From: an uncultured Pseudomonadota bacterium
Lineage (GTDB): Bacteria; Babelota; Babeliae; Babelales; RVW-14
NCBI GenBank assembly: GCA_964534555.1
Contig: CAZHRK010000003.1
Location: 72,627 to 136,626, forward strand
Length of the DNA stretch: 64,000 bases
Direction of reading: 5' to 3'
A program made the translations under genes and the position numbers. Below, piece by piece: positions 3,101 to 62,187 of this stretch; the stretch's first letter is position 1; the number at the start of each line of letters is the position of its first letter. Under the pieces are notes generated by a model that saw only the letters and a list, made by a program, of their open reading frames with translations, did no database searches and was not told the DNA's origin.

Positions 3101-6100
3101 TTTTTCAGAATAGCGATTTGCTCTGTTGTTGGTGCAGCATCAGCTTTTTTGACATCGTCCTGAGCTTTTTTGTTTTCAGCAGGGGTGGCAGGAGTTGTCG
3201 GTGTTTTACCTTTAGTGCCAGCTTGGCCAGAAGATTTAGCGCCCTTAGGCTTACCACCTGTTGCAATCGCTTCATCGAGTGAGGAATCAATATCATCAAT
3301 AGTTGAAGCTTTACCAGGTGGGATGATACCAGTCTTCTTAGCTTTTTTAACGATGTTGCTTAGTGTTTTAATAGTCTCAGGATCCATGTCTTGGCCCTGA
3401 GCAGCAAGGTCAGCAAGTGCATCTGCAAGTTCGTTTTGTTCCTCAGGAGAGAGGGCGCCGGTAGCGGCTTTATCAACAAGGGCTTGTAGCTTTTTGACCT
3501 TGTCTTTAACTGAGCCCTTAGCGTTTTTGATAGCTTTAATATTGTCTGCGGTTGGCTCAGTAGGAAGCGCGGAGATATCTTCTGTTGTTACGCCTTGCTG
3601 CTGTTTACCCTTGCCACCTTTTTTGCCAGGGGAGCTTGCGCTCCCCTTTGCATCTTTAGCCTGGCTTGGTTGTTGTCCGCTATCGTTTGATGGGCTGCTT
3701 ACTTGCGGGCTGCTTTTTTGCTGGTTGGGGTTTTGATTGCTGGACTTTTTTTTTTCGCCCCCTGTTTTGGAGCCCGTCTTTGCTGTTGTTGTGTCTGTTG
3801 GCGTTGTGCTATCAGGAGCTTGCGGTTTGCTTGTGCCTGATGCTGGAGTTGTAGTTTTGCCTTTTGCTGGCTTAGCTTGTTTTTCTTGTTTTTTAGCTGC
3901 TGGCGCAGATGTTTGTTGTCCGCCTGTTGATGCTGGTGCGCTTGATCCTTTGCCTTGTGCTGCTCTTGATGGATCAAGGTCAAGCAAGATACTCTCAATT
4001 TGTTTGCTCATGCTGCCGCCCAAGCTGCTTGTTTGCGCGCTTGAGATGAATCGTATGATCTCTGCTTTGTCGCTTGCGCTTGCTGATTTACCTTTGGCAG
4101 CCATGTCTCTTAATGCTTTGATAAATGCTTCTTGATCAGCTTTGTTTGTTGAAGCTTTTCCTGCAGTACTTGTAAGCAGTGTCATTTGTGACTTGAGATC
4201 GCTTACTTGTAGAGCATTAAATATCTCTCTTTGAATCGAGCTTTCAACGATGCTGATTCCTTGGTCACTCAGCATTTGTTTAACTTGTTGCTGCTGGATT
4301 GCATTAAGAATAGATATGTTGATACATGATCTTAGGAATGTAATTACGCTATCAGAACGTTTAACAGATTTGTCTGAATCACCATACACAGCTTGTACAA
4401 GTTTGAAGAACAATCCGTACGTAATCTCATCAAAGCGCTGAGAATCAGGAATGATACGTACAATATTACGTGCTAATGAAAGTTGCTGATCACCAAATGC
4501 TGCAAGTGCATTTGAAATACGCTTATCAATATCAATAACATCGCCATACTCTGGAATTATCTGTCTTTGTGCTGCGCTGAGCAGTGGGGTGTCTTCAGCT
4601 GAGACGAGCAAAAACTCAAGGTTTGCAACTACATCAAGAGAAGAGCTTGTCAGCGAGTATGCCTCTGTTCGTGTTGCTACGAGTTGTACAACTGCATTAT
4701 AGAACAGTGTTTGCAGGCGATTGCCAACAACAACAATGTCATCAAACTCTGCCATGATATCAAGCATAGCTTCTATGCGCGCGTTGTAATCGCTAAGAGC
4801 AAGTGCTGCAAGGATCATAACTTCAACGCGTACTGTTATTGCCATTGATTTTGCATAATCTTGTTGAGCCTTGCTCAGGAGGGATGACGTGCTTGCAGCA
4901 TCAAGTACATCAAGGAGCGCTCTATTTGTATCAAGGCTTTCTCCTTCGCGAGCATCAAATGTTGCAACAAGTCCATCTCGTGCAAATAAGTTTTGAACTT
5001 CAGCAGAGAACATGACTGTCTTGGTTGCGCTTACCTGTGCAAGCGCAGCAACGTCACTTAAGATCGCGCTGAACTCTTTAAGTCGTGCGTTGTAATCAGA
5101 AATTGCAATAGCAGATCTGATGCGCGCAAGAAACTTAAGTGAGTTAATTTCGCCTTGAACTGTCGGAAGGCTTACAGACGTAATAACGCCTTTAGCTGAT
5201 TCATTTAAAAGTCCTACTTCTGCAGCATCAGCGCTATCAAGTAATGTTACAAGAATACCAAGCTGGTCAACATCTGTTTTGCTTCGTTTTGTATACACTT
5301 GATTGAGTGCAGTGTTGAAAAGACCTTGAATATTTGCAGCAACGCGCGCTGTTCTGAATGTCGTTAAGATGTCGTTCACTTCGCCAAGCTGCGATGTATA
5401 GTCTTTCATCGCTATTACAGCATTAAGTCTTCGTACGAGGCTGAGGTTTGCAAGTTCACCTTCAACCGTTGGTGTGTATGTTGTTCTAACGGCATCTTGT
5501 GATGCTGAATTAAGAAGAGGTGAGGTGCTTGCTGAGCGCAGGAGCTGGAGCAGCGCTGTAAGTTGTTTTTCATTTGTTGATTGGCGGCCAATAAAACAGC
5601 TATTCAGAACACGCATGAGCGCGCTTGATACATCGCCAACTGTTAGATCAAGATTTGACTGTGCGTATTTAATCACAATATTAAGAGCTGAGCTAATACG
5701 CGCATCAATGTTTCCAATTCTCTCAGCTGCTGCAATTTCCGCTAGTGCTGCGAGTGTAAATAACTCTTTATCAATTTGTGTTGTCCATGTTGTCATTGTT
5801 GCTTTTTGTTCAGCAGTAAACAGTGCCTTGCTTTGCGCCTTAGTGATTGTTGCTTTGATTTTTGTTAATCCATCAATCGTTTTTGTTCTGCTGTCGTATT
5901 GCTTTTTAAGCGCCTCAAAAAGGCTATTACGTGTTGCTTCGTCAACTTGGCTTGGGTCAAGGTCAAGAAGATCATCAATGCTTGCAGGGGCTCCATCTGT
6001 TCCTGTTTTGCCCGTGATGGCATCTTGAATGCGGGCTTTATTGATCTCTTTTTGTAATGTTGGAATCCAATCATCACGCATAATGTCATTTACAAAGCGT

Positions 6101-8088
6101 CCACCATCTTGAACAGCTCTTAGTTGGTTGCTTGAAAGCCAGCTTTGAATTAGATCAAGTAAGTTTTGTAGCGCGGCGGTGTTTGATGCGTCTCGACCAT
6201 TGTACATTTTCTTAAGGCCATCCCAGACATTTTTTGCTTGTTCTGCAGTTAGTGTTTGTCCTGCAACAGGGCGCGGGAAGCCATTTGGATTTTTTGGGTC
6301 TGCGCTTGCAATTTTTGTTAAGAGATCAAGTTCGCGTGCAATTTGTGGTAACCATGTGCCAACAATTGTTGCATGGTGTGTTTGAATAAGTTTGCGTGGT
6401 GTTGACCATAATTCCAGAAGTCCACGTAGGCTCGTTAGGCTATCAATTGATAACGAGTTACGTTTGTCATAACGATCTTTGAGTTGGCTGAAAACCATAT
6501 TAGAAAGCGCAACATCAGCAGGATTGTTTTGATCAAGCGCTGGATTAAATGCCGCACCAGGACCTGCATCAATATCTACAGATCCGCTTTTAACAAGCTG
6601 AAGCTTTGCAATTTCTGCATTAACAGTTGGCACCCATGTGCTGTTTATCGTGCTGTTTTGTCCTGAGGTCAGTTTGCCACTACGTGACCAGCTGGTAAGG
6701 TACGCAACAAGATCTTGGAGGAATTTAATTTTTTCATCGTTACCGGTTAGGCCAGCTACTGCAGCTGTTCTACCATTGTAACGTGCTTGTAGCAGCGCGA
6801 AAATTTGGCTTTGAAGTTGTGGCGTAAGAGGGCTTGGGGTATCCTCTGGTGCTATGTCTCCGCCTGCTCCTGTGCCGCTTCCACCTGTTGAAAGGTCATT
6901 AATCTTTTTTTCTAAAATTGTACCAGCAAGACTGTTGAGCCATGATGCAATTGTTGCGCGCTGTGTTTCTGTTAATTTTCCACCAGAGCTATTGTCATAC
7001 CAATTTTTTAGAATGTCTCGCATTGTCTCTAGCTCAGTGATCGCAAGTGTTGAGGCTGTGCTGTAGTAGTTTGACAAGCTTTGCATGATTTGTCCTTGCA
7101 GGCGCGCTTGATGGCTGACTGCTGAGGATTTACCACTGTCGTCAAGGATAGGTGATGTTGTTACAGAGACAACATCAGTGCATGAGCTAAGTTGTGCTGT
7201 GATTGAGGTTGGTACCGTCACAGAGGTTGTTGTAACTGTTGAAATAATTGGATCAATAAGCTGCTTAAGGCGCGCAAGGAAGATTCGCTGTGTTTCGTTT
7301 GGTACTGTAATGGTTGTTCTTAGCCCACCGAGTGCGCTGATTGTTGTTGCGCTTAAAATGCTTGATTCAAGATCAACAATAGCTATAAATGTTGCGAGTT
7401 GTGATTTGTATGAAGAATCAGTTACAAGTGGTGAGTTAGACGCTGTTGTAAAAATAGCTTTTACAGTAGCAAGTGATGTCAGTGTTGGAATTGTTACGGC
7501 GCCAGTCGATGTGCTACTTACTCGTTGTGCAAATACTTTAAGTAAGTTTGTGTAAAATATTTTTTTAATCGCATCTGTAAACGTTACTGTTGTCGTTGTT
7601 GTAAGGTTTCCAGCTTGTTGCAGTAGCAGTCTAATATTGCTGAGCGTTTGAGTCGTGAACCCAGATGTCCCCATGCTAAATATTTTTGTTTCAATAGAAA
7701 GCATGCTATTCATGCTTTTAATAACATTATCATAGCTACTATTGCTCGACATTGTGTCTTTTTGGATAAGAACAGCAATAATACTATTAAGGTTATCTGC
7801 AGCTGTGCTGCCTGAAGCATCACTTTCAGCGTACGCTGTTATACGGTCTGAAAAGAGCTTAGTGATGGCGCTGTAAACGCTTTCGATATCACTTCCTGCT
7901 ATTGTATCGGCAAAAGTGATCGCTTCGTTTACTTGATTCAGCCTGTCTACGTATGAGCTTGCACCCATAGCAGCGGTGATTTGACTACTCAATGATGCTG
8001 CATGCGCAGAGGAGCACCAAAACAGTGCTGCTGTCATCGCGCAGCTTATTAAGGTTTTGATTCCTGTAATACGTTTAAATAGGCTCAT
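163..8088 (-). CDS. Giant secreted alpha-helical repeat protein (about 2,640 aa), function unknown
   Basis: Uninterrupted ORF 163-8118. The ATG at 8088 (MSLFKRITGIKTLISCAMTAALFWCSSAHA...) follows GGAGACGGAGA and gives a classical signal peptide, so I prefer it to the 8118 start. Composition is Ala/Lys/Thr/Asp-rich with several internal repeat families. Confidence 0.85.
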   Translation of the reverse strand: MSLFKRITGIKTLISCAMTAALFWCSSAHAASLSSQITAAMGASSYVDRLNQVNEAITFADTIAGSDIESVYSAITKLFSDRITAYAESDASGSTAADNLNSIIAVLIQKDTMSSNSSYDNVIKSMNSMLSIETKIFSMGTSGFTTQTLSNIRLLLQQAGNLTTTTTVTFTDAIKKIFYTNLLKVFAQRVSSTSTGAVTIPTLTSLATVKAIFTTASNSPLVTDSSYKSQLATFIAIVDLESSILSATTISALGGLRTTITVPNETQRIFLARLKQLIDPIISTVTTTSVTVPTSITAQLSSCTDVVSVTTSPILDDSGKSSAVSHQARLQGQIMQSLSNYYSTASTLAITELETMRDILKNWYDNSSGGKLTETQRATIASWLNSLAGTILEKKINDLSTGGSGTGAGGDIAPEDTPSPLTPQLQSQIFALLQARYNGRTAAVAGLTGNDEKIKFLQDLVAYLTSWSRSGKLTSGQNSTINSTWVPTVNAEIAKLQLVKSGSVDIDAGPGAAFNPALDQNNPADVALSNMVFSQLKDRYDKRNSLSIDSLTSLRGLLELWSTPRKLIQTHHATIVGTWLPQIARELDLLTKIASADPKNPNGFPRPVAGQTLTAEQAKNVWDGLKKMYNGRDASNTAALQNLLDLIQSWLSSNQLRAVQDGGRFVNDIMRDDWIPTLQKEINKARIQDAITGKTGTDGAPASIDDLLDLDPSQVDEATRNSLFEALKKQYDSRTKTIDGLTKIKATITKAQSKALFTAEQKATMTTWTTQIDKELFTLAALAEIAAAERIGNIDARISSALNIVIKYAQSNLDLTVGDVSSALMRVLNSCFIGRQSTNEKQLTALLQLLRSASTSPLLNSASQDAVRTTYTPTVEGELANLSLVRRLNAVIAMKDYTSQLGEVNDILTTFRTARVAANIQGLFNTALNQVYTKRSKTDVDQLGILVTLLDSADAAEVGLLNESAKGVITSVSLPTVQGEINSLKFLARIRSAIAISDYNARLKEFSAILSDVAALAQVSATKTVMFSAEVQNLFARDGLVATFDAREGESLDTNRALLDVLDAASTSSLLSKAQQDYAKSMAITVRVEVMILAALALSDYNARIEAMLDIMAEFDDIVVVGNRLQTLFYNAVVQLVATRTEAYSLTSSSLDVVANLEFLLVSAEDTPLLSAAQRQIIPEYGDVIDIDKRISNALAAFGDQQLSLARNIVRIIPDSQRFDEITYGLFFKLVQAVYGDSDKSVKRSDSVITFLRSCINISILNAIQQQQVKQMLSDQGISIVESSIQREIFNALQVSDLKSQMTLLTSTAGKASTNKADQEAFIKALRDMAAKGKSASASDKAEIIRFISSAQTSSLGGSMSKQIESILLDLDPSRAAQGKGSSAPASTGGQQTSAPAAKKQEKQAKPAKGKTTTPASGTSKPQAPDSTTPTDTTTAKTGSKTGGEKKKSSNQNPNQQKSSPQVSSPSNDSGQQPSQAKDAKGSASSPGKKGGKGKQQQGVTTEDISALPTEPTADNIKAIKNAKGSVKDKVKKLQALVDKAATGALSPEEQNELADALADLAAQGQDMDPETIKTLSNIVKKAKKTGIIPPGKASTIDDIDSSLDEAIATGGKPKGAKSSGQAGTKGKTPTTPATPAENKKAQDDVKKADAAPTTEQIAILKNIIGKAKDKNLDAATKNAIAAQIDKMSKNIDKMSKDELIAFEQLLQDADDSGALSDAQKEYVNKTIKVKITKAKADADVIDTLPTEPTADNIKAIKNAKGSVKDKVKKLQALVDKAATGALSPEEQNELADALADLAAQGQDMDPETIKTLSNIVKKAKKTGIIPPGKASTIDDIDSSLDEAIATGGKPKGAKSSGQAGTKGKTPTTPATPAENKKAQDDVKKADAAPTTEQIAILKNIIGKAKDKNLDAATKNAIAAQIDKMSKNIDKMSKDELIAFEQLLQDADDSGALSDAQKEYVNKTIKVKITKAKADADVIDTLPTEPTADNIKAIKNAKGSVKDKVKKLQALVDKAATGALSPEEQNELADALADLAAQGQDMDPETIKTLSNIVKKAKKTGIIPPGKASTIDDIDSSLDEAIATGGKPKGAKSSGQAGTAAKVSQADIDDINNETDPVVKKQKIKDLIKRAGTGVIDADVQKSFSTLLETIVKDNLGADAGSLSELNEIIQKATNTGLLNKDQKVSLSSKVTPLINEALRQASEPTAENIKKTQDSATPQNKLTALETFINKLGGKVPDAATQAALDELLASVIADESDLTIEEKKRLGGLIKKARGQKIITTKGLAGLTDTDINDLSAGNQPRSGGLIKEEETEPTPGNISKMKKTTNKSRRIKLLKGMGQKLKAPLAGKEKQEVVDALNDTIRSVKTLSASDRDELLATIDILVATGTLSASEAAAMKAEITKAGPAQQAPQKPTDPVWEEIDALTKLLNAPNASSLSPEEKAQIETRINALSKQLKQGDLAKVNAVMQVIKTAQTKNVISKETATSTTAAIQPLARPSATQAISAVRSAPKVVDEQSQRPVSRRVVKIDTSAAKPSRAAGVSTSAVIMQGLTDNISKIKRAQTADDIIKATQGLATWAVAKGLDANAQAIASKALSETIERIKTVDTKRLAELKKIISDAAQKTKLISADQAKTLATQ
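1793..3569 (-). repeat. 2.5 copies of a near-identical 711-bp in-frame tandem repeat (237 aa per unit) inside the giant gene
   Basis: The anchor gtgccagcttggccagaag occurs at 1793 and 2504, an offset of 711. The right boundary ggaagcg ends at 2858 and 3569. Antisense ORFs in the track repeat identically at 711-bp offsets (1683/2394/3105 and 2072/2783/3494). Confidence 0.95.
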
Positions 8089-8225
8089 TCTCCGTCTCCT
8101 CGGGGCTGAAAACGTCATTATTTAAGATCCAATAAATAGTTACAGAGTGTACGCCTTATGATCAAGAGTTATAAAAGCTCATTTGTTGCACACGCGTACA
8201 CGATGACCTACCCTAGACAAAAAGT

Positions 8226-22942: not shown

Positions 22943-25900
22943 TTAGAACAGGTCTTTTAGCTTAGAAACAAGGCTTTTTGATGCTTTAATTAAAAGATCA
23001 TCTAAATCGTTAACATTTGCTTCGATTCTAATAGAAAAGTCTTTGCCACCAATAACACCTTCAATTATTGATATTGGCATTTTGCCTTGGACAACCGCCT
23101 TAAGGCTTTCAATTTCTATTCGAATTTTATTGATAGTGAAGACGTTTACTGCTCGCAGGCCAAAATCAAGGACTTTTGAGCTTACGCCAGTTGCTTTTTC
23201 TGCTGCATACAAGCTACCTTTTGCCAGCGTTAGAGCCGCGTCAGCTGTTTTTTGTGCTGCTATCAGAGCGGCTAGCTCAGCACGCTCATCAGCTGTTGTT
23301 TTATCAAGGACTTCTTTTTGTACAACCTTGCCTGCAGATTTGCCTGTATCAACCACCGAGTCAACGGCATCTTTGCCTGTATCAACCACTGAATCAAGGG
23401 TGTTTTTGCCTGTATCAACAACAGAGCTACCGATACTTTTTGCTTTATCTACTACTTTATTAAAAACGCCCCATGCATAGAGTTTATGTGGTTTTTGATT
23501 TGTCAAAAGTGTATCTAAATCAAATCGAGCATCAGTATTAGTTGCTATTTTACGTCTGAGTTCTGCTATACGTACGTCAAGCCTATCAAGATCCTTCTGA
23601 GCGCTTTCAACTTTTGATCGAGCGTCTCGAATAGATGCCCCAGCTTGATCAAGCTCACCGCGTATTTGTTTTCTGAAGCGCTCAATAAATGCTGCATCAA
23701 ATCCTGATGCGATTTCTCCTGATAATCTGAAGTCTATATTTTTAACACGCGCTACATCGTCAATACTATCCATTTCAGTTGGAAGGTTGACCGCAGATCC
23801 CTCAAATGTTGCTCTAAAAGGACCAAACAACGTGCGCACGGTTTTGAAGCTAAGCTTGTCCCCGCTAAAGAAAAGATCTGTTTGGCTTACAGATCCCAGA
23901 AGTTCTGCAAGCCCAGTGAAGGTGATGATTTGTCTGTCTTTGGTTAGTGTTAGTTCAAATGCTGCGCCATCATCATCTGTTCCGTATTTTTGATCAAGCC
24001 CCGCGCCGGTTAATTTGAGAGGCCCAATATCTATTTTCGGAATTGTTCCATTCATACTAAAGCCGCTGTCACTTACAACTATTTGTGCTTTACCATCTCC
24101 CACAAATGGCAGTGCAACAAGAGCATTCATTCTTAATCCAGGCGCAAGCACTGGTTTCTTTAATGATGTACCTTTGAGCCCAACAGTAAATTCAGCTGCT
24201 TTAATCCCCATGTTCGGTAATCTTAACGTTGGCATATCAAGGCCCGATTTTGTGGCAAATGCAATTACATCTTTAAGCGTTAGTCTCTCCGCGCGCATTG
24301 ATGTGTAGAGCAGAAAGCCTTCTTTGCTTAGTTTTACATCTGTTTGGCTTGAAACTCCAAATAGCTGTACCAACCCAGACATAAGAAAGCGTTGTTCTTC
24401 TTTTGTTAATTTAATATCAACAATCGCTCCATCATCAGCTGTTCCATATGCGCCGTCTTCTCCCATGCCTGTTATAAGCACTGGGCCGCACTCTATTTTG
24501 CTTAATTTACCTTTTGCGCTAATTCCATTATCGCGCACGAGTAGTTCTACAAGAGCAAATTCATCAAGCACCTGGACTTTACCTTTCATGGTAATCCCAG
24601 GATCGAGTCTGAAGGTTTTGAATTTTTCACCCTTCATACCAACGGTGTATTCAACATCGCTTAATCCAAGGTCGGGTAGTGCATCAGGTGGTAGCGTGAG
24701 TCCTGTTTTGTTTGCAGCAGCAATAATGTCTTTTAAATTAATGCGATCAATTTTGAGCGATGATAAGAATTCAAAGCCTTCTTTTCCTAGGTACACTTCT
24801 GTTTGTGCTGAGCTTCCAAATATTTTAATTAACCCCGAAATTAAGACATGCTGCTTTGTTGGCGTAAGCGCAAAACTAACAACTGGTCCATCATCAGGTG
24901 TGCCGTATGTTTTATCTAACCCTTTTCCTGTTATCAGTACTGGGCCTAGCTCTAGTTGGGATATTGTGCCCTCTGCTATTATGCCGCCTATATCAACATT
25001 AACGTTAATAGTTGCTTTTTCATCAAGTACTTCCATAGAGCCTTTGAACGTTAGGCCTGGGTCGAATTGAATCTCTCCAATCGATCCACCAGTTGGTGCA
25101 AATTTTACTTCAACATCATGAAAGCCAAAGTTTGGAACTTTTTCTATTGCGATATTTGCGCCTGCGCTTCTTGCAAGGCTTGCAAGGTCAGATAAGAAAA
25201 GTCGGTTGATACTGCCATACATAATCAGGTCTTGAAGATTTGCAGTGACCAGCGTTCCTACGCGTGCTTTGATATCACCTACTTGTACAGCGCCAGTAAG
25301 ACCGAATTTAGTCGGTAAACCAGTAGCAGAGAAGACCGCGTAGTCTATACCAGCTTCTACCGCCACATCAGATATAGCAAAGCCTTTGATGCCCATAGGG
25401 TTGTGCCAATCTCCCTTCATTGTGCCTGAGAGCGATGCGCTATCTGGCTCAACTTTTACTCGGCCATAGAGTCCCAGGGGCTCGTCTTTATCAGATGGGA
25501 TAACAGTGATTTTTGTTATGAGAGAGAGCTTCGGGCCACTTCCGTCAAATTCAAAAATGAGGTTATCAAGTGTTGCCTTTTTACCCAGGCGTACTTGCGC
25601 AGGGATATTTGCTTGAAGCTTAAGGTCTCTGATGCTCCTGCCAACCGACATAACGGTATAAACTTCTTTAGGTGCATCAGGGACTAAATTGCTTACACCA
25701 GCAAAGACACCACCGGTTGTAGGCATTTTTAGGACAATTGAGACGCCCTGAGGGATATCAATTTTTAATGCTGGGTCGGTGTAGGCTTTTGATGCAGCGA
25801 TGATACTTGCGCGTGAGAAGTCGATTTTATCAATATCTGTTCCTGCTGCATCAGGAATAGAGTCAGATACTTTCCAGCCAGCTTTAATACCGCCCTTAAG

Positions 25901-53257: not shown

Positions 53258-54979
53258 ATGTTGATACTATCTCTTGTAATTAATTTCCTATTAAGTACTT
53301 CTCTGTATGCTGCCGCGGCATCCTCACATGATTTGCCACATGTTTTATCTACAGAAGCAGCCGATGCAATAGCAAAATTCTATTGTGTTGAACCAAGCGC
53401 AAAAAGAATAGCACGAGATATTTTGTTGCGAGCGACAAAACGCGATCGAGATGATTTAGTCCTTGAGTTAGATGAAGATGCAAAAAGAGTTGCATATAGT
53501 TTATATCAACAAGCATTAGCTCGGGGTGATGTACGGGTTGTAGATTTGGTTAGTCATAGCCTACCAGAGCTTCTTGATCGGCCGATTTCAGCAAGATCAG
53601 CCTATTCTGATTTGCATTTAAACATGAGGCGCTTTCCTAAGAGACTTAGAAATGAGCTATCTGGTCGTGATGATAATCTTGCTGCTGAAGTTATAGATGA
53701 TTATGTTGGCCTTAGTTTGCCAAAGCGAGTTATGAATTTTTCTAAAGAAGAAATTCTTGGCGCCTCAATAGAAAGGCTTGAAGAAATTATTGAAGTATTT
53801 GAATGTTATGCAACTCAAGAAGAGCAGCTTGTATTTAGAGATCCGATTATAACAAGGTTGACTGAATTTCTCTATGCGGCGCTTGATGCAAAAGATTACG
53901 ATACTGTTATTTTATTATTAGACTCGTATTATCTTTATTATAAAACGATTGATTTTGATGCTAAACACAACCTCTTTTTTATTGCGATTGCTAACTCAAT
54001 AGCGTTATTTAAAAAAATTGTAGATCTTGATTTAGATGATCCAGGATTTATCAATAAATTTTCTGCTAACCCTTTTCACAATAGATTATCACCTGAATTT
54101 AGTGTTGATGCTATGAAAGTACTCATTGATGCCTATGGAGTAAGAAGTCTAATTCAACCATTAGTCGTAAAAAAAGCACATCATTCCCCTCAAGCGCGTC
54201 AGATTTATCCATTCATGATTGCTCTAGCATATGGTGATGTTCCACTTTTAAAATTTCTACTCAGTGTAAAAAACCCAGAAACAGACCTTTATGTGCACTA
54301 TGAAGAATTATTATTAGATAAAATTCCACTTATGTGGCATGCAGATGATGCTGAAATAATTTTAGACTGCAGCCTTCCAAGGCCGCATGGCTGTGATCCT
54401 GAGATTATTCTTCATGGGACAACTATTTTCCATTGGTTGGCATGCTCACAAATTGCTCCAGAGGTTTTTATAAAATTTTTGACTGGATTATCTAGATCAG
54501 ATCTTGCCTCTGGTCCCGTTGACCCTATCGCACCTGAAAAAATTATGGAGTGTCTAGATCTATTGCTCAAACATTTACGGTCACCAATAAGAATAATCTA
54601 CAACACAGCTCTTATTGAACCACTTGAGTTTGCACTAGCATCAAAAAATTATGCTACGGCAAAAATGCTTATTACCGCGGGCATGGTCAGTGAGATTAAT
54701 AGAGCTTCATTCGCTATGAGTTTATTTAAAGAAGGCCAAGTAGAGCTTGCACGACTCTTGATCCCAAGCATCACAGCTGAGTCTATTGAAAGATATGAAG
54801 CGATGGAGGCTGCTTCATATGCAGCTCGTAGAAGCGTCGTTCCAGTAGCTAATGCATCAGAAGCGGAGTATGAAACATTACCACGCTCTCACAGCCTTCG
54901 AAACCCTGGAACAACTCGTCGCGGTAGACTACCTGCTTCTGGCAAGGAATCAACTAGAAAAATTATTCCACTGCGATAA
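53258..54979 (+). CDS. Ankyrin-repeat-like protein with a signal peptide (paralog 2)
   Basis: The ATG at 53258 after AAGG gives MLILSLVINFLLSTSLYAAAAS (track start is a TTG at 53219). It is collinear with the 51281 gene. The 3' end overlaps the lpxI stop convergently by 17 nt. Confidence 0.65.
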   Translation: MLILSLVINFLLSTSLYAAAASSHDLPHVLSTEAADAIAKFYCVEPSAKRIARDILLRATKRDRDDLVLELDEDAKRVAYSLYQQALARGDVRVVDLVSHSLPELLDRPISARSAYSDLHLNMRRFPKRLRNELSGRDDNLAAEVIDDYVGLSLPKRVMNFSKEEILGASIERLEEIIEVFECYATQEEQLVFRDPIITRLTEFLYAALDAKDYDTVILLLDSYYLYYKTIDFDAKHNLFFIAIANSIALFKKIVDLDLDDPGFINKFSANPFHNRLSPEFSVDAMKVLIDAYGVRSLIQPLVVKKAHHSPQARQIYPFMIALAYGDVPLLKFLLSVKNPETDLYVHYEELLLDKIPLMWHADDAEIILDCSLPRPHGCDPEIILHGTTIFHWLACSQIAPEVFIKFLTGLSRSDLASGPVDPIAPEKIMECLDLLLKHLRSPIRIIYNTALIEPLEFALASKNYATAKMLITAGMVSEINRASFAMSLFKEGQVELARLLIPSITAESIERYEAMEAASYAARRSVVPVANASEAEYETLPRSHSLRNPGTTRRGRLPASGKESTRKIIPLR

Positions 54980-55769
54980 GACAGATATTCAGCTCCTGGG
55001 CTTTTTGTTTGAAAAGCTCAAGATCATTAATGAGTGTTGTGTGGGCTTCCCACGCAATTGCCTTGACGTCACCAGCTTGTAGCACTGCAAGTGTTGCAGG
55101 CCCTAGAGTAGGAAGATCATATTTTCGATTGTGATCTTTAAACGCTGTTTTGCATAAAATAACGCCGCCTTGTGCAAGTGCAATTGCCCGTTGCAAGCAA
55201 GCATCAGTTCCCTCTATTGCCTCTGCTGCTATGACCATGCAATCTTTAACAACAACTGTTTGGCCAATATCAGCCGCAGAAATCTCACGGGCTTTTTGCA
55301 GACCAAAAAAGATACTTTTTTTATCTTCCTCAGAAAGTTCACCACAAATAATTCCCGGCTTACAAAAAAGCCCACCAAGCACCTCGTCTTGCTGCAAGAC
55401 GCTAAACCCTTGGTCCTCTAAAAAATTTATAGCTCCTTGCATGATGTCGCGATCACCTTTAAACGTTAATTTTGCAAAAAAGCTAAGTGCCATGCTGTCA
55501 AAACTAATATGTTTTAACAAAGCTCCTTTATCAACTTTACCTATAAAAAAAAGTTTGTTACAGCCACGGCTTTTCACCGCGGCAATAATTGAGCTTGGTT
55601 TATAATAGGGCTTTTGTAAAACTTCGGCATGGCCATCGCACACAGCGGCAAGTGCCTGACCATTATTTTCTGGAAATAACGATACAACCATAAAGCTTGT
55701 ATTTTGTTCAATAAGTGTGCTGCATGCGCGCAGCGGAAGTTGGCCAGTACCTGCTATAAGAGCAATCAT
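54963..55769 (-). CDS. lpxI: UDP-2,3-diacylglucosamine pyrophosphatase LpxI (DUF1009 family)
   Basis: N-terminus MIALIAGTGQLPL and the C-terminal block KYDLPTLGPATLAVLQAGDVKAIAWEA are typical of LpxI. It lies in a lipid A gene context. Confidence 0.75.
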   Translation of the reverse strand: MIALIAGTGQLPLRACSTLIEQNTSFMVVSLFPENNGQALAAVCDGHAEVLQKPYYKPSSIIAAVKSRGCNKLFFIGKVDKGALLKHISFDSMALSFFAKLTFKGDRDIMQGAINFLEDQGFSVLQQDEVLGGLFCKPGIICGELSEEDKKSIFFGLQKAREISAADIGQTVVVKDCMVIAAEAIEGTDACLQRAIALAQGGVILCKTAFKDHNRKYDLPTLGPATLAVLQAGDVKAIAWEAHTTLINDLELFKQKAQELNICLIAVE

Positions 55770-56847: not shown

Positions 56848-57645
56848 TTATTCTAAAGATGCTTCTTTTTCATGTGCACATTTGCGCGATACGCCACGCT
56901 CACTTGAGGTGATAAATTCTATGAATTTAATAACGTGACTATCACTGCCCCAGCTTTCATGTGAGGCTGCGTTTTTAATTTCGTCTAAAGAAATTTTGTC
57001 TTGGTAAAAAAGCTTTGTAACGTGTTTGAGTGCATTAATACTTTCGCGCGGCATTCCTGCTCGGCGTAATGCGATAACGTTAAGCCCATAAAATGCTGCT
57101 GGCTGACCACTATATAATCCATAAGGTGGCAAGTCTTGTCTGATGCCACTAAATGGTGCAAGTGCGGCAAATGTACCAACACGACAAAATTGATGTGTTG
57201 CCGCGCCCGCCATTAAAAAAGCTCGCGTTTCAACATACGTATGCCCGCCCAGGTTAACATTATTTATTAATGTTACGTGGTCTTCAAGAATAGAGTCATG
57301 CGATACATGAGCAAAATTCATCAGATAGCAGTTGTTGCCTATTTTGGTAATACCGTCTTGTGTACGTGGGCCATGAACTGTTACAAATTCACGAAGGTGA
57401 CAATTTTTTCCGATCTCAATACGCCCAACTGGTTTTTCAAGGCCGATTACTTGCCCCTCAAATCCAACTGTTGCATGCGAGTAGAGTCGGGTGCCATCAC
57501 CGATTGTGACATTACCTGTCACAGTGCAGAATGGGCCAATTTTAACGTTCTTACCAAGTACAACATTTTCGCCGATTACAGCAGAGGGATGAATATATGT
57601 TTCATCAGAATGAAAGAAACCTTCCTCAAACGAGGAAGGTTTCAT
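56848..57645 (-). CDS. lpxA: Acyl-ACP--UDP-N-acetylglucosamine O-acyltransferase
   Basis: Left-handed beta-helix hexapeptide repeats (IHPSAVIGENVVLGKNVKIGPFCTVTGNVTIGDG...) plus the helical LpxA C-domain (LNVIALRRAGMPRESINALKHVTKLFY). The start is trimmed to the ATG at 57645 because the ORF maximum (57771) runs through tRNA-Gln. Confidence 0.9.
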   Translation of the reverse strand: MKPSSFEEGFFHSDETYIHPSAVIGENVVLGKNVKIGPFCTVTGNVTIGDGTRLYSHATVGFEGQVIGLEKPVGRIEIGKNCHLREFVTVHGPRTQDGITKIGNNCYLMNFAHVSHDSILEDHVTLINNVNLGGHTYVETRAFLMAGAATHQFCRVGTFAALAPFSGIRQDLPPYGLYSGQPAAFYGLNVIALRRAGMPRESINALKHVTKLFYQDKISLDEIKNAASHESWGSDSHVIKFIEFITSSERGVSRKCAHEKEASLE

Positions 57646-57689
57646 ATTTTTTTGTGCAGATAAATTTTCCAAGATGTGAACTCCGATGC

Positions 57690-57764
57690 TGGCTGGGGCG
57701 GAAGGATTCGAACCTACGCATGGCGGAACCAAAACCCGCTGCCTTACCACTTGGCGACGCCCCA
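57690..57764 (-). tRNA. tRNA-Gln (anticodon UUG), encoded CCA
   Basis: The minus strand reads TGGGGCGTCGCCAAGTGGTAAGGCAGCGGGTTTTGGTTCCGC...GGTTCGAATCCTTCCGCCCCAGCCA. The anticodon loop is TTTTGGT. Confidence 0.9.
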
Positions 57765-57786
57765 ATTGCATTTCACGAGAGGTATA

Positions 57787-58059: not shown

Positions 58060-58302
58060 AAGAAGCTCTCCGGTTTGTGCCTGGTTGCGATTAACAGTAA
58101 GTTTCGCGCGACCTGTAACCTTTTTCGTGACAAACATGGCATCAATCTAAAGCGGGGGTCTATTCATGTCAACTTTTTTTTACTGACTGTAACGCTTTTC
58201 TTAAAAAACATGCTAAATGTGTACAGTTAATGAATTTAATTCCGTAAAAAAGGGCTTTTTATTGTTAAATTCGATTAAAATGCTTTATCTGTTACTATTA
58301 AA

Positions 58303-58337
58303 AATATCGAGGCATAATTAGGGTATGCCCTGATATT
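58303..58337. promoter_or_regulatory. Imperfect inverted repeat upstream of the CaaX/ankyrin-like gene (candidate operator or 5' hairpin)
   Basis: aatatcgaggcata - 7 nt - tatgccctgatatt, with 12 of 14 positions complementary. It ends 23 nt before the ATG at 58361. Confidence 0.25.
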
Positions 58338-58360
58338 TTTAGTTTATGGAGGGGGTTTTT

Positions 58361-59185
58361 ATGGTAACTAACTATTTAGTGAAAATAATTACATTTTTAT
58401 TCAGTTTTTTAACGTATTCATTAGTATCACCAGCGGCAGCTTCAGGCACCGTTAGTCCCGCAGAATCTGGTTCTGGAAGTACTAAGAAAAGAGTAGGTTT
58501 TGCACCTTTAGTAGATATAAAGACTATAGAGCCAAGAGAGCTTGTTAATCACAGGCCGCCAAGCTTGAGATCGAGCGATACAGATGCTACACCTAAAAGT
58601 CCTGCTGATAGTAACGCACTAAGACGCCTTCACGTGGCAATATGCAGTGATGATGATTCTAAGGTTGATCGTATACTAAGTTTATACGAATTTTCTCCAG
58701 AGTTGCTTCTTTCACCGCTTGAGTTTACTTATGAACCAGAAACGCTTGTGCACGCGGTTGCTCGATCTATCCACAAAGAGCCAAAAAAACAATTATCTAT
58801 CTTGAGAAAGATTATAAATCATTTGGAAGATGGTGTTGATTTTTCGCATGAAGATGCGCGCGGAAATAAGCCGCTTGAGCTTATGTGTCAGCTTCAGCAT
58901 GATGCCACATGCCCTTATTTTGCAGAGGCGGTCATGCTTTTTATTCGACATGGTGCATCAGTTGATAGAATTAAAAATTCTTTAACTATTAGTCCTAGAA
59001 TCAAGGCTATAGTTCTGAGTATGCATACTGCACGTACGCGTGTTATGCGAGTTCCGCTACATGGTTCTGAGGAATCTTCGCCATCAGTTGCAGCTTCTGC
59101 TGCTGCTACACCTGCCGTACGAAAAGATGGTTCAACTGAAAAAACTACACCAAAAGCTGGCGCAGGGTGCTGCACTATAAGCTAA
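58361..59185 (+). CDS. Ankyrin-like protein with a signal peptide and a C-terminal CaaX-type motif (CCTIS)
   Basis: The ATG at 58361 follows GGAGGGGG (ORF maximum 58346). The N-terminus is MVTNYLVKIITFLFSFLTYSLVSPAAAS. GNKPLELMCQL...LFIRHGASVD is ANK-like. The last codons tgc tgc act ata agc taa give C-C-T-I-S-stop. Confidence 0.65.
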   Translation: MVTNYLVKIITFLFSFLTYSLVSPAAASGTVSPAESGSGSTKKRVGFAPLVDIKTIEPRELVNHRPPSLRSSDTDATPKSPADSNALRRLHVAICSDDDSKVDRILSLYEFSPELLLSPLEFTYEPETLVHAVARSIHKEPKKQLSILRKIINHLEDGVDFSHEDARGNKPLELMCQLQHDATCPYFAEAVMLFIRHGASVDRIKNSLTISPRIKAIVLSMHTARTRVMRVPLHGSEESSPSVAASAAATPAVRKDGSTEKTTPKAGAGCCTIS

Positions 59186-59294
59186 TGAGCGCTTGCTCTA
59201 GAATGTTTATTTTTAGTTCTTGCATAAAGTATTAAAAAAGGTCATAAAAATACCAGGTTTCAATCGGTGCTCTAAAGCAACGTGAAGGTATTCT

Positions 59295-60080
59295 ATGACC
59301 TTTTTTAATGTACTAGCGTTTTTAGTATTGTTCTTTGGTTTTGAACTCCGTGCAGCTAATCAATCCGTTCTATTATTAGATGATAAAATTAATCAGTTGT
59401 ATGAGCTTGATAATCTGGAATCAGCATTTAAAGATGCTATTGAGAAATCAGAAACGCTTTATGGCGCAACAAAAACAAATGAGTTTATCTCTGTTTGCAA
59501 GCAGGTTGTAGAGCAGGTGCGCCTTGCGTATATCGATTCCTACAAATCCTATGTTCTTCAATCATTTGAAAAGCGTCAAAATCATAAAAGTCGTATGCTT
59601 CGACTTCCACAGTATCTTGGTAATCTTTTTAAAAAAATTCTTACAGATGTTATTAAAAAAAAGGTTTTGGTTTTTTTTGATCAAGACGTCTTGTCATCTC
59701 ACCAAAAAGATTACGCATACATTCTGGCCCACTGCATTTGTGCTAAGGCTCTAAAATTGTATGATATGACTGGATTAATGATAGATCTTGCATTAGATGC
59801 GCGTTCCGTTGATGATTTTAGAGGCTTGATGCACCATGCACCCTCTATTTTACGCCAGCGTAGTGAACCAGAGGCCAGAGGCCTACGCTTTCTCGTTTTT
59901 ATAATACTTTTTAGCTGTGGTAGTTATGCAATACTCAGTGAGTATAATCTCCCTAAGCAGGCAGTGCAGAGCAGTCCTCAAGCGTACGGCTCATTAAATG
60001 CATTTACAGCACAAAAGCAGGTGCTGAGCAATCCACGCCCAACGCTGCTTTCTTTGCTTTCCATAAACTCAAATCGCTAA
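59295..60080 (+). CDS. Hypothetical protein with a signal peptide and a C-terminal TM segment
   Basis: MTFFNVLAFLVLFFGFELRA at the N-terminus and LRFLVFIILFSCGSYAIL near the C-terminus. No family recognised. It overlaps the rsmH stop by 4 nt. Confidence 0.55.
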   Translation: MTFFNVLAFLVLFFGFELRAANQSVLLLDDKINQLYELDNLESAFKDAIEKSETLYGATKTNEFISVCKQVVEQVRLAYIDSYKSYVLQSFEKRQNHKSRMLRLPQYLGNLFKKILTDVIKKKVLVFFDQDVLSSHQKDYAYILAHCICAKALKLYDMTGLMIDLALDARSVDDFRGLMHHAPSILRQRSEPEARGLRFLVFIILFSCGSYAILSEYNLPKQAVQSSPQAYGSLNAFTAQKQVLSNPRPTLLSLLSINSNR

Positions 60081-60966: not shown

Positions 60967-62187
60967 TTAAATCTTTGTAAAATCGATTTTACGTATTGGT
61001 TTTACTACAAAATCAGGTTTTTCAAGGATACCATAACTTTCAACTTCCAGCACTACCTTCTTTCCGCCAAGAGCGCGCAGAGGCCCAAGATTCATTTTGC
61101 GTGTATTATCAAGAAGTTCATAGGTTGCCGCTTTTGCAAGCTCAAGCTCAGACTCCCCAAAAATCCCTAGATATCCCCGCACATAGGACTGATCTCGTTG
61201 CGTTACGATTGTGTCAACATCGATAACCCCTACTTGATTTGGTTCGACTCTGATAATAGGGGTTTTATCAAATCGCCACACAGCCATATCATCTTTATCT
61301 TCTGTAGCTCCAAGCCAGCTGCCTTTTGCTTTTTTCATATAAATAAAACCACAGACATAGAGCGGTACGCCTGTTTTGTTTTCAACAGCAAAATCAAGCT
61401 CTCGGGTTGAGGCTACTTGTTCTTTCTGATCATTTTTTTCAAAATCGTATTCTACAAACTCGCCTTTAAAACCATAGGTTTCAACATGCAGCGTCACGGT
61501 TTTATTTTTTAGGGCAATAAGTTTATCAAGATCGAGTTTGAATCGATCTTCTGTTAGCTCATATGTTGCTTTTTCAGCTTGTTCGTATGATGGGAAAACC
61601 CCTAGATACCCAAAGACATTTTTTCTGTCTTGCTCATTTTCGATACTATTAATATCAATTGTTTGAGTACTATTATTTTTTAGCACATAGACAGGGCTTT
61701 TGTACCATCCCCATCGTGCAAAATCCCTACGGCGCAGATACGCAAAACATGTGACGTAAACAGTTTTACCTGTTTTATTAAGTACATCAAAATCAAGTTC
61801 ACGTGAGCTTTTTGAGCTCAGCACAGATGACGGTCTTATTTTTTTGATCGTGCCTTTTGACTCTTTTTCAGCTCGAGCGAGCTTAACTTGGAGGCGTGCT
61901 TTTTTCTTAGCCTTTTTTGGTTCAGGTTTTTCCGGCGCACTCGTTTCTAGTATTTTGGGTTGTTTCTTTTCTGGTGCGTCGTCAAAATCAGGCATGTCAC
62001 CGAGTTCTGTAAGCATGAGCGCTTTAAAGGCATCTCGTGCGCCTGTGTCTGCAGTTGTGCTCGTTAATTGTAGTTGTTGGGGTGCTTCTGGTATTTCTTG
62101 AACCACTGCGAGTTCTTCGACTGCTGCTCTTATTGGATCTGAAACAAATACAACTGATAGCGCCAACACAAATAATTTGAACTTCAT
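60967..62187 (-). CDS. Secreted protein with a Lys/Pro/Glu-rich linker and two copies of an unknown domain of about 125-135 aa
   Basis: Signal peptide MKFKLFVLALSVVFVSDPIRA. The internal duplication is detailed in the repeat feature. It ends 2 nt before the rsmH start. Confidence 0.7.
   Translation of the reverse strand: MKFKLFVLALSVVFVSDPIRAAVEELAVVQEIPEAPQQLQLTSTTADTGARDAFKALMLTELGDMPDFDDAPEKKQPKILETSAPEKPEPKKAKKKARLQVKLARAEKESKGTIKKIRPSSVLSSKSSRELDFDVLNKTGKTVYVTCFAYLRRRDFARWGWYKSPVYVLKNNSTQTIDINSIENEQDRKNVFGYLGVFPSYEQAEKATYELTEDRFKLDLDKLIALKNKTVTLHVETYGFKGEFVEYDFEKNDQKEQVASTRELDFAVENKTGVPLYVCGFIYMKKAKGSWLGATEDKDDMAVWRFDKTPIIRVEPNQVGVIDVDTIVTQRDQSYVRGYLGIFGESELELAKAATYELLDNTRKMNLGPLRALGGKKVVLEVESYGILEKPDFVVKPIRKIDFTKI
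61000..61806 (-). repeat. Internal domain duplication (aa 128-248 and 261-396 of the 406-aa protein)
   Basis: RELDFDVLNKTGKTVYVTCFAY...VFGYLGVFPSYEQAEKATYELTEDRFKLDL...KTVTLHVETYG aligns with RELDFAVENKTGVPLYVCGFIY...VRGYLGIFGESELELAKAATYELLDNTRKMNL...KKVVLEVESYG. Confidence 0.85.

What the first reader, a model, noticed from the sequence alone, without database searches (positions are those of the whole stretch)
59140..59185. Eukaryote-type CaaX prenylation box (C-C-T-I-S-stop) on a bacterial ankyrin-like protein
The 58361-59185 product ends ...TPKAGAGCCTIS*. Cys at position -4, an aliphatic Ile at -2 and Ser at the C-terminus fit the farnesyltransferase CaaX rule; H-Ras ends CVLS. The adjacent upstream Cys resembles the palmitoylation site of Ras proteins. 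Bacteria lack protein prenyltransferases of this type. Intracellular pathogens such as Legionella are known to use CaaX-bearing effectors, including the ankyrin/F-box protein AnkB, which host enzymes lipidate to target them to membranes. Together with the ANK-like units, this marks a candidate host-targeted effector.
Basis: partly seen in the sequence, partly recalled or inferred. Interest (0 to 1): 0.7.

Follow-up and report, generated by a model that had tools for sequence, protein, structure and literature searches.

The report
Ras-like lipidation tail on Dependentiae protein
A small secreted, ankyrin-like protein of an uncultured protist-dependent bacterium (phylum Dependentiae) ends in CCTIS, which closely resembles the tail that eukaryotic cells farnesylate and palmitoylate on Ras; the bacterium probably borrows host enzymes to pin the protein to host membranes, a trick already known from Legionella and Salmonella.

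Summary
The 274-aa product of 58361..59185 ends ...KAGAGCCTIS, followed by two stop codons.

What supports the host-lipidation reading:
- The genome is a Dependentiae (TM6/Babeliales) bacterium, a phylum of obligate parasites of protists.
- The protein has a Sec-type signal peptide, a disordered linker, a roughly 150-residue ankyrin-like helical domain, a 45-residue disordered linker, then the CCaaX tail.
- CTIS is a published positive CaaX box in a yeast H-Ras reporter screen (enrichment 7.6; Ras2's CIIS 9.0; H-Ras's CVLS 11.8).
- GG-CCIIS is the farnesylated and palmitoylated tail of yeast Ras2.

What limits it:
- Only one ortholog exists in about 5.8 billion proteins (77% identity). It keeps GCCTIS and the double stop, but with six codons this is not significant.
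- About one strict CaaX per genome is expected by chance.
- A census of 418 Dependentiae-like genes found no other credible case.
- Delivery to host cytosol is unproven.

The gene and its 261-aa neighbour are a lineage-specific, fast-evolving insertion between rsmH and spoVG.

Verdict: a plausible candidate (about 0.55) and a new member of the known class of host-prenylated bacterial effectors. It is not homologous to AnkB. Moderate interest.

The parts
58361..59185 (+). CDS of the 274-aa protein, including the first stop. A GGAGG Shine-Dalgarno sequence lies at 58348..58352, 8 nt upstream of the ATG.
   Evidence: dN/dS against the sister ortholog is 0.28, so this is a real coding gene under purifying selection, though it evolves fast.
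58361..58444 (+). Sec-type signal peptide, residues 1-27/28. MVTNYLVK is the n-region, IITFLFSFLTYSLV is a 14-residue h-region, and SPAAA|S is the c-region with an A-x-A site.
   Evidence: Read directly from the sequence. Hydropathy maximum is 2.30 over 12 residues. AlphaFold predicts a helix at 2-21. dN/dS is 0.06, the most constrained part of the gene. No dedicated signal-peptide predictor was available.
58445..58600 (+). Disordered Ser/Gly/Pro/Thr-rich linker 1, residues 29-80.
   Evidence: pLDDT is 28-46. dN/dS is 0.40, and the sister ortholog carries a 7-aa GSGSTSK duplication here.
58601..59050 (+). Ankyrin-like helical repeat domain, residues ~81-230, with three helix-pair units. The one repeat recognisable by sequence is at residues 157-190 (58829..58930).
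   Evidence: pLDDT is 72-91. The top 50 Foldseek PDB hits are almost all DARPins or ankyrin proteins, at E~0.01, prob ~1 and TM 0.5-0.65 on the target. An hmmsearch profile hits 10 and 7 ANK units of P0003 and P0004. hhalign aligns 27 columns at E 1e-3. Pfam itself gives no hit.
59051..59164 (+). Disordered linker 2, residues 231-268, comparable to the hypervariable region of Ras. It is Ala/Ser/Pro/Thr/Lys-rich.
   Evidence: pLDDT is 33-37. There are 8 nonsynonymous differences from the sister ortholog, with dN/dS 0.36.
59165..59182 (+). Tail G269-C270-C271-T272-I273-S274. Cys271 (59171..59173) is the predicted farnesyl acceptor of the CaaX box CTIS. Cys270 (59168..59170) is the predicted S-palmitoylation site.
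   Evidence: The six codons are identical in the sister species. CTIS scored positive in the Ras61 screen. The CCIIS tail of Ras2 is prenylated and palmitoylated.
59183..59188 (+). Double stop codon TAA TGA (TGA TGA in the sister species). It fixes Cys271 at position -4.
59295..60080 (+). Co-inserted orphan gene p261. It has a signal-peptide-like N-terminus and a hydrophobic segment near the C-terminus. Whether it is functionally linked to the target is unknown.
   Evidence: It has a single homolog at 77% identity. Its dN/dS is 0.23. Like the target, it is absent between rsmH and spoVG in seven more distant Dependentiae loci.

Best explanation
The gene encodes a small secreted host-interaction protein of a Dependentiae bacterium that mimics the membrane-targeting tail of Ras.

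Proposed steps:
1. The N-terminal signal peptide takes the protein through Sec and is cleaved (inferred).
2. The protein leaves the cell by the phylum's type II secretion-like apparatus or in outer-membrane vesicles and reaches host cytosol (inferred; this is the weakest step).
3. Host farnesyltransferase farnesylates Cys271 of the C-terminal CTIS box. Rce1 and ICMT then remove -TIS and methylate the cysteine, and a host DHHC palmitoyltransferase acylates the adjacent Cys270, as happens on yeast Ras2 (CCIIS) (inferred from motif identity and published screens).
4. The double lipid anchor, at the end of a 45-residue flexible linker, tethers the ankyrin-like domain to the cytosolic face of a host membrane, either the plasma membrane or the membrane around the bacterium. 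There the domain binds an unknown host protein.

Shown here: the motif, its exact C-terminal position, the disordered context, the signal peptide, the ankyrin-like fold prediction, the taxon, retention in the one ortholog, and the lineage-specific, fast-evolving nature of the gene.
For: - The motif is exact and terminal, followed by a double stop.
- CTIS is in the 'Prenylation (positive)' training set of PMC9231725. In the Ras61 screen of PMC4358939 its enrichment is 7.57 (702/37/34 reads), against 9.01 for Ras2's CIIS and 11.8 for H-Ras's CVLS; the positive cut-off is >3.
- The Ras2 tail ...SGSGG-CCIIS is prenylated and palmitoylated and is sufficient for plasma-membrane targeting (PMC5328616). 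The tail here is ...KAGAG-CCTIS.
- The last 45 residues are predicted disordered (pLDDT 33-37), as a prenylation linker should be.
- The host-dependent lifestyle fits. LepA is 79-85% identical to Babeliales/Dependentiae/TM6 MAGs, and Dependentiae are intracellular parasites of protists rich in signal-peptide-bearing ankyrin proteins (78% of 98 in C. destructans; PMC6561590).
- T2SS components, including two gspD copies, are core genes of TM6 (PMC4776705).
- The ankyrin-like fold is supported.
- The ortholog keeps GCCTIS and the stop position, while the linker just upstream has 8 amino-acid changes.
- The gene and p261 are a lineage-specific insertion into the conserved DnaA-p406-RsmH-SpoVG block. 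Their dN is 15-30 times that of DnaA and RsmH, as is typical of host-interaction genes.
- There is precedent: Legionella AnkB (ANK plus CaaX CVLC) is farnesylated by host FTase in macrophages and Dictyostelium (PMC2916131).
Against: - Only two sequences exist. Zero changes in six tail codons is not significant: ~1.5 nonsynonymous changes would be expected at the linker's rate, P~0.2, and no synonymous change shows independent selection.
- A strict CaaX is expected about once per genome by chance.
- No other credible CaaX-ended protein was found among 418 genes in 566 kb of Dependentiae-like loci, so there is no sign of a lineage-wide strategy. That sample is small and biased towards housekeeping regions.
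- The Sec signal peptide sends the protein to the periplasm. Passage across the outer membrane and any vacuolar membrane is not shown for any Dependentiae protein.
- The periplasm could oxidise the CC pair.
- The ankyrin assignment fails Pfam thresholds.
- No host is known for this organism.
Confidence: 0.55

Rival explanations
1. Chance motif. The protein is an ordinary exported (periplasmic, envelope or extracellular) ankyrin-like protein of the bacterium. Its last four residues merely happen to fit the CaaX rule, it never meets a prenyltransferase, and the tail has no lipidation role.
For: About one strict CaaX per 1200-1500-gene genome is expected by chance. Cys at -4 occurs at the expected frequency in Dependentiae-like loci (6 seen, 4.4 expected, including the two orthologs) and there is no further credible CaaX. 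Tail conservation is not significant. The protein has a classical Sec signal peptide, and 45% of window proteins have one too, so export by itself does not imply host targeting. The finding was picked by eye from a large scan.
Against: The combination is improbable by chance: an experimentally strong box, an adjacent Cys giving a tail that closely resembles Ras2's (~0.01 expected per genome), a 45-residue disordered linker, an ankyrin-like domain, and an obligately protist-dependent phylum. A double stop at the same position is kept in both species even though the first stop codon itself changed, TAA to TGA.
Confidence: 0.3
2. The C-terminal Cys pair has a bacterial-side function. After Sec export the two cysteines might form intermolecular disulfides that fix the protein in a cross-linked envelope, bind a metal, or act as the acceptor of a bacterial C-terminal lipidation or sorting pathway analogous to MYXO-CTERM and myxosortase.
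For: MYXO-CTERM proteins also combine an N-terminal signal peptide with a Gly/Cys signature (generic GCGC; TraA has an adjacent CC). They are thought to be lipidated on Cys, cleaved by a CaaX-protease-family enzyme and displayed through the T2SS (PMC11980579). TM6 genomes carry T2SS parts. The tail here is G-A-G-C-C.
Against: The defining tripartite tag is absent. Only three residues (TIS) follow the Cys, then two stops. The downstream frame (ALALECLFLVLA* in the window, ASAQERLFLFLA* in the sister) has no transmembrane helix plus Arg cluster and is not conserved. No CPBP protease or other sorting enzyme was seen among the window proteins scanned. No family of proteins shares the tail.
Confidence: 0.1
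3. The N-terminal hydrophobic segment is an uncleaved membrane anchor. The protein would then stay in the bacterial inner membrane with its ankyrin-like domain in the periplasm, and the C-terminal tail would be irrelevant.
For: The N-terminal helix is predicted at residues 2-21 and the segment is strongly conserved (dN/dS 0.06). No signal-peptidase prediction tool was available.
Against: The hydrophobic core is only 14 residues. It is followed by Pro and an Ala-Ala-Ala-Ser small-residue site, typical of cleavage by signal peptidase I (read directly).
Confidence: 0.05

Closest known systems
Legionella pneumophila AnkB (F-box / ankyrin / CaaX effector)
   Same: Both are small proteins of a bacterium that lives inside amoebae, with ankyrin-type repeats and a C-terminal CaaX box. 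In AnkB the box (CVLC) is farnesylated by host FTase in macrophages and Dictyostelium and anchors the effector to the vacuole membrane (PMC2916131).
   Different: There is no detectable sequence homology: whole-database searches find only one ortholog. There is no F-box. The protein has a Sec signal peptide rather than being a Dot/Icm type IV substrate. It has a CC pair that predicts additional palmitoylation. It comes from a different phylum (Dependentiae).
Saccharomyces cerevisiae Ras2 C-terminal CCaaX tail (…SGSGG-CCIIS); H-Ras CVLS
   Same: The tail closely resembles Ras2's: a small-residue, Gly-rich linker followed by C-C-x-I-S. In Ras2 the first Cys is palmitoylated and the second farnesylated, and the tail alone targets proteins to the plasma membrane (PMC5328616). 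CTIS performs like CIIS and CVLS in the Ras61 reporter.
   Different: The protein is not a GTPase and has no homology to Ras outside the last 5-9 residues. It is encoded by a bacterium. Position a1 is Thr rather than Ile.
Salmonella SifA (C-terminal CLCCFL) and the Legionella 'Pel' CaaX effectors
   Same: These are bacterial effectors modified by host prenylation. From my own knowledge, SifA is additionally S-acylated on a neighbouring Cys. PelC and PelE are localised to the Legionella vacuole by host prenylation (PMC13081727, listed).
   Different: Those effectors are injected by type III or type IV systems of Proteobacteria. No such system is known for Dependentiae; only Sec plus T2SS-like parts are reported. 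They are unrelated in sequence.
MYXO-CTERM / myxosortase C-terminal Cys sorting tags
   Same: Both have an N-terminal signal peptide and a Gly/Cys C-terminal signature. In MYXO-CTERM the Cys is thought to be lipidated, and the proteins are displayed through the T2SS (PMC11980579).
   Different: MYXO-CTERM requires a transmembrane helix and an Arg cluster after the Cys. Here only TIS and two stop codons follow.

Membership tests
Eukaryotic CaaX farnesylation substrates (FTase) | Cys exactly four residues from the C-terminus | tested here: met
   Translation gives ...GAGCCTIS followed by TAA TGA. The sister species is the same.
Eukaryotic CaaX farnesylation substrates (FTase) | a2 aliphatic and X in S/M/Q/A/C; tetrapeptide accepted by FTase | tested here: met
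   a2 is Ile and X is Ser. CTIS is in the positive prenylation set of PMC9231725 and scored 7.57 in the yeast Ras61 screen of PMC4358939, where the positive cut-off is >3. This is published data on the tetrapeptide in an H-Ras context, not on this protein.
Eukaryotic CaaX farnesylation substrates (FTase) | Flexible, accessible linker upstream of the box | tested here: met
   The AlphaFold model has pLDDT 33-37 over residues 230-274 with no secondary structure. The sequence there is rich in A/S/P/T/G/K.
Eukaryotic CaaX farnesylation substrates (FTase) | The protein is present in eukaryotic cytosol and is actually farnesylated | not testable with these tools
   This needs expression or infection experiments. 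Only a Sec signal peptide and phylum-level T2SS genes indicate export.
Ras-type dual lipidation (CCaaX: palmitoyl + farnesyl) | A second Cys immediately upstream of the prenylated Cys, no polybasic stretch | tested here: met
   Cys270-Cys271 are adjacent, and the last 20 residues carry a net charge of about +1. The model is Ras2 CCIIS. Palmitoylation itself cannot be tested here.
Ankyrin repeat proteins (Pfam Ank clan) | Match to a Pfam ankyrin model at or above the gathering score | tested here: not met
   hmmscan against Pfam-A returned no family at E<=0.1.
Ankyrin repeat proteins (Pfam Ank clan) | Stacked helix-turn-helix repeat fold and repeat-level sequence similarity | tested here: inconclusive
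   The top 50 Foldseek PDB hits are almost all DARPin or ankyrin proteins, but at E~0.01 and from a model built on a 2-sequence alignment. Profile hits to 10 and 7 ANK units of two true ANK proteins have E 1.9e-5 and 1.3e-4. hhalign gives probability 22%. PDB phmmer gives E~0.1.
Legionella AnkB family | Sequence homology to AnkB and an N-terminal F-box | tested here: not met
   No F-box was found in Pfam. Searches of 5.8 billion proteins and 1.84 billion representatives returned only the self hit, one ortholog and two unrelated multi-ANK proteins.
MYXO-CTERM-type C-terminal sorting tags | Tripartite tag: Cys signature, then a transmembrane helix, then an Arg-rich cluster | tested here: not met
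   Only three residues and two stops follow the Cys pair, and the downstream frame is short and not conserved. The definition is from PMC11980579.
Sec-dependent secreted proteins (signal peptidase I substrates) | n-region with a positive charge, 10-15-residue hydrophobic core, small residues at -3/-1 | tested here: met
   K8, then IITFLFSFLTYSLV, then S-P-A-A-A|S. Hydropathy is 2.30 and dN/dS is 0.06. This rests on inspection; no SignalP-type predictor was available.

The most novel reading that the evidence does not exclude
Dependentiae, a phylum with no known injection-type secretion system, deliver Sec/T2SS- or vesicle-exported proteins into the cytosol of their protist hosts. At least one of them is then farnesylated and palmitoylated by host enzymes as a mimic of the Ras tail. 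To my knowledge this would be the first case of host-prenylation hijacking outside the Proteobacteria and the first on a signal-peptide-bearing effector. It would also give a simple, testable reporter (the 45-residue tail) for whether Dependentiae secreted proteins reach host cytosol at all.
Probability: 0.4. Interest if true: 0.6.

Novelty: new member of a known kind. Interest (0 to 1): 0.42.

Why it matters
Almost nothing is known about how Dependentiae (TM6), a widespread phylum of obligate protist parasites, manipulate their hosts. Their many signal-peptide-bearing ankyrin proteins are assumed to be effectors, but none has been shown to reach host cytosol. A host-lipidated tail would be direct, easily tested evidence of cytosolic exposure. 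It would extend the Legionella and Salmonella paradigm of prenylation mimicry to a distant phylum and to a different export route. If the motif is a coincidence, the finding is just one more orphan secreted protein.

Tried and rejected
- **Pfam, NCBIfam and PDB sequence searches of the protein.** These gave no family; the PDB search gave only weak DARPin hits at E~0.1.
- **Search for orthologs to test tail conservation.** Searches of 5.8 billion proteins, 1.84 billion representatives and GTDB genomes yielded a single ortholog, so the conservation test has almost no power.
- **Positional orthologs in more distant Dependentiae, through DnaA-anchored metagenome loci.** There are none. In seven loci rsmH lies next to spoVG, so the gene pair is an insertion.
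- **Census of CaaX tails.** In 566 kb of Dependentiae-like loci and 839 kb from other phyla, no further credible case was found. One 'strict' hit (L086 15182..15568) is an antisense ORF over spoVG. The sample is too small and too housekeeping-biased to exclude a genome-wide pattern.
- **Foreign origin by composition.** Rejected: GC is 0.415 against 0.406 +/- 0.021, and GC3 is within 2 sd.
- **Paralogy with other window proteins.** None was found; phmmer gave nothing better than E=0.06, to the ANK565 protein.
- **MYXO-CTERM-like sorting tag or stop-codon read-through.** Rejected.
- **Literature search for CaaX in Dependentiae/TM6/Babela.** Nothing was found. The sample accessions are not in the paper library.
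- **Full 8000-CXXX Ydj1 screen.** Its supplement is not held.
- **Promoter scan.** It gave no + strand consensus promoter upstream of the gene, which is uninformative for this phylum.

Full report
**Observation**

The mechanical ORF runs 58346..59185. A GGAGG lies 8 nt upstream of the ATG at 58361, and public gene calls give the 274-aa product.

Translation of 59141..59224 reads KTTPKAGAGCCTIS**ALALECLFLVLA. So Cys271 is exactly at -4, Cys270 at -5, Ile at -2 and Ser at the C-terminus, followed by two stop codons.

Chance expectation, with Cys at 1.1% of residues:
- A strict FTase-type box (C-x-[VILM]-[SMQAC]) is expected 0.04 times among the window's ~55 genes, and about 0.8-1.05 times per 1200-1500-gene genome.
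- With a second Cys at -5, the expectation falls to about 0.01 per genome.

This is the only ORF of at least 100 aa in the window with Cys at -4. The bare motif is therefore not beyond chance at genome scale. The CC context makes it unlikely, but that criterion was chosen after seeing the sequence.

**Organism and neighbourhood**

The window has 41% GC. It carries housekeeping genes: ArgS, LepA, SecD, MurD, HldE, FtsW, LpxA, LpxI, RsmH, DnaA and SpoVG.

LepA is 79-85% identical to MAGs labelled Babeliales, Dependentiae or TM6. The genome is therefore an uncultured member of Dependentiae. The few cultured members of this phylum are obligate intracellular parasites of amoebae and flagellates (PMC6561590 and PMC4776705).

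Of 42 window proteins, 19 have an N-terminal hydrophobic segment. This matches the 44% signal-peptide content reported for Chromulinavorax destructans, where 78% of the 98 ankyrin proteins carry a signal peptide.

**Anatomy of the protein**

| Residues | Feature | Evidence |
|---|---|---|
| 1-28 | Classical Sec signal peptide: K8, a 14-residue hydrophobic core, then P-A-A-A\|S | Most conserved part of the gene, dN/dS 0.06 |
| 29-80 | Disordered linker | pLDDT 28-46 |
| 81-230 | Confidently modelled helical domain | pLDDT 72-91 |
| 231-274 | Disordered linker and tail | pLDDT 33-37 |

The top 50 PDB matches of the helical domain are almost all ankyrin-repeat proteins (DARPins or natural ANK proteins). 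They are weak, however: E~0.01, with TM 0.5-0.65 normalised to the target.

By sequence, Pfam finds nothing. A profile of the two orthologs does hit 10 and 7 repeat units of two genuine multi-ANK proteins, at E 1.9e-5 and 1.3e-4 over 1.84 billion proteins. hhalign aligns 27 columns (DGVDFSHEDARGNKPLELMCQLQHDAT) to an ANK unit at E 1e-3. "Ankyrin-like" is therefore reasonable as a fold statement, but the protein does not pass the family's curated threshold.

**Is CTIS a real CaaX box?**

No prenylation predictor was available, so I used published experimental data.
- In the yeast Ras-recruitment screen of nearly all CXXX boxes on H-Ras61 (PMC4358939, S2 File), -CTIS has enrichment 7.57, with 702, 37 and 34 reads at 37 °C, 25 °C and naive. 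Ras2's own -CIIS scores 9.01 and H-Ras's own -CVLS scores 11.8.
- PMC9231725 uses enrichment >3 as its positive criterion and lists CTIS in its "Prenylation (positive)" training set.
- The Ras2 tail ...SEASKSGSGG-CCIIS is prenylated and palmitoylated, and it is used as a portable plasma-membrane anchor (PMC5328616).

The tail here, ...EKTTPKAGAG-CCTIS, has the same architecture. A small-residue linker leads into CC, then one variable residue, then I-S. There is no polybasic stretch, so palmitoylation of Cys270 would be the second membrane signal.

**Conservation and evolution**

Whole-database searches find a single ortholog (P0002, 77% identity). It comes from a sister species at ~90% DNA identity and lies in perfect synteny.
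- The ortholog keeps GCCTIS and the double stop (TGA TGA instead of TAA TGA), while the preceding linker has 8 amino-acid changes.
- This has little weight. All six tail codons are identical at the DNA level. At the linker's rate only ~1.5 nonsynonymous changes would be expected, giving P~0.2.
- The whole gene has dN/dS 0.28, so it is a real gene.
- Its dN (0.119) is 15-30 times that of DnaA (0.007) and RsmH (0.004).

In seven more distant Dependentiae loci the order is DnaA-p406-RsmH-SpoVG, with rsmH directly next to spoVG. The target and the adjacent orphan p261 (also a single homolog) are thus a lineage-specific two-gene insertion on the opposite strand. Their base composition is ordinary.

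A census of 418 genes in 566 kb of Dependentiae-like loci found no other credible CaaX-ended protein. I therefore cannot show that CaaX mimicry is a strategy of the phylum. The sample is small and centred on lepA and dnaA.

**Mechanism proposed**

1. Sec export and signal-peptide cleavage.
2. Release through the T2SS-like apparatus that is core to TM6 genomes (two gspD copies; PMC4776705), or through the outer-membrane vesicles seen in C. destructans.
3. Access to host cytosol.
4. Farnesylation of Cys271 by host FTase.
5. Removal of -TIS and methylation of the cysteine.
6. Palmitoylation of Cys270.
7. Anchoring of the ankyrin-like domain on a host membrane.

Only the sequence features are shown. 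Every step after Sec export is inferred, and the route to host cytosol is the weakest link. I put this reading at about 0.55.

**Rivals**

- **Coincidental motif on an exported bacterial protein (0.30).** It is favoured by the chance rate, the lack of enrichment and the weak conservation test.
- **A bacterial role for the CC pair (0.10).** This could be disulfide cross-linking or a MYXO-CTERM-like lipidation and sorting pathway. Those tags also combine a signal peptide, a G/C signature and the T2SS (PMC11980579). But the defining transmembrane helix and Arg cluster are absent here: only TIS and two stops follow the Cys, and the downstream frame is short and not conserved.
- **An uncleaved N-terminal anchor (0.05).**

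**Comparison with known systems**

Functionally, the closest are Legionella AnkB (ANK plus CaaX, farnesylated by host FTase; PMC2916131), the Legionella Pel effectors and, from my own knowledge, Salmonella SifA (prenylated and S-acylated).

The protein is not a member of the AnkB family: it has no homology and no F-box. What differs is the phylum, the Sec signal in place of a type III/IV signal, and the Ras2-like CC tail.

No paper in the searchable library links CaaX or prenylation with Dependentiae, TM6 or Babela.

**Verdict**

This is a candidate new member of a known kind, the host-prenylated bacterial effectors, in a phylum where no effector mechanism is known. Interest is moderate (0.42). 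The experiments needed to test it are simple ones.

Noticed in passing
window 53100-55018 (ORF 53219..54979, +): This 586-aa orphan ORF, with a signal-peptide-like N-terminus, is absent from the sister species, where the 565-aa ANK gene is followed directly by lpxI. It is 25% identical to that adjacent ANK protein (51281..52978). It is therefore either a diverged tandem paralogue gained in this lineage or one lost in the sister.
   Followed up: partly
window 58138-60076 (between spoVG and rsmH): The target and the 261-aa orphan p261 form a two-gene insertion on the opposite strand, inside the otherwise conserved DnaA-p406-RsmH-SpoVG block. Seven more distant Dependentiae loci have rsmH next to spoVG with gaps of only ~60-220 bp. 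p261 has a signal-peptide-like N-terminus and a hydrophobic segment near its C-terminus. It evolves as fast as the target (dN/dS 0.23).
   Followed up: partly
window 58138-58360: The spoVG/target intergenic region is 97% identical to the sister species, and the first ~105 nt next to spoVG are 100% identical. Flanking genes are ~90% identical with dS~0.4. This suggests a strongly constrained non-coding element, possibly the spoVG leader or promoter. A hairpin with a T-run lies at 58311..58334, just upstream of the target's ribosome-binding site.
   Followed up: no
window 60967-62187 (-): The 406-aa secreted protein p406 has an internal duplication of a ~130-residue unit and no Pfam match. It is conserved immediately downstream of dnaA in all Dependentiae-like loci examined (38-49% identity).
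   Followed up: no
window 163-8118 (-) and 22943-27553 (-): Two giant ORFs of 2651 aa and 1536 aa have N-terminal hydrophobic segments and no significant Pfam domain. They may be surface or secreted proteins.
   Followed up: no
window 57693-57764 (-): A tRNA gene lies inside the 5' extension of the mechanical LpxA ORF (56848..57771). The real lpxA start must be downstream of the tRNA.
   Followed up: no
window 36873-38657 (+): This gene encodes an ATP-dependent DNA ligase of the dnl1 type (TIGR00574, E 4e-109), rather than only the usual bacterial NAD-dependent LigA.
   Followed up: no
L083 11604-13818: In the closest DnaA relative (69% identity), dnaA is not followed by p406 and rsmH. Instead there are two small ORFs that look like a HEPN/nucleotidyltransferase toxin-antitoxin pair (my reading of the sequences, not tested) and a 420-aa protein made of 'WSPNGNY' beta-propeller-like repeats.
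   Followed up: no
window 41018-41581 (-): This 187-aa protein with a signal-peptide-like N-terminus gives a sub-threshold Pfam match to Effector_1, a type III effector family (E 9.5e-4; 18.8 bits against a cut-off of 23.8).
   Followed up: no
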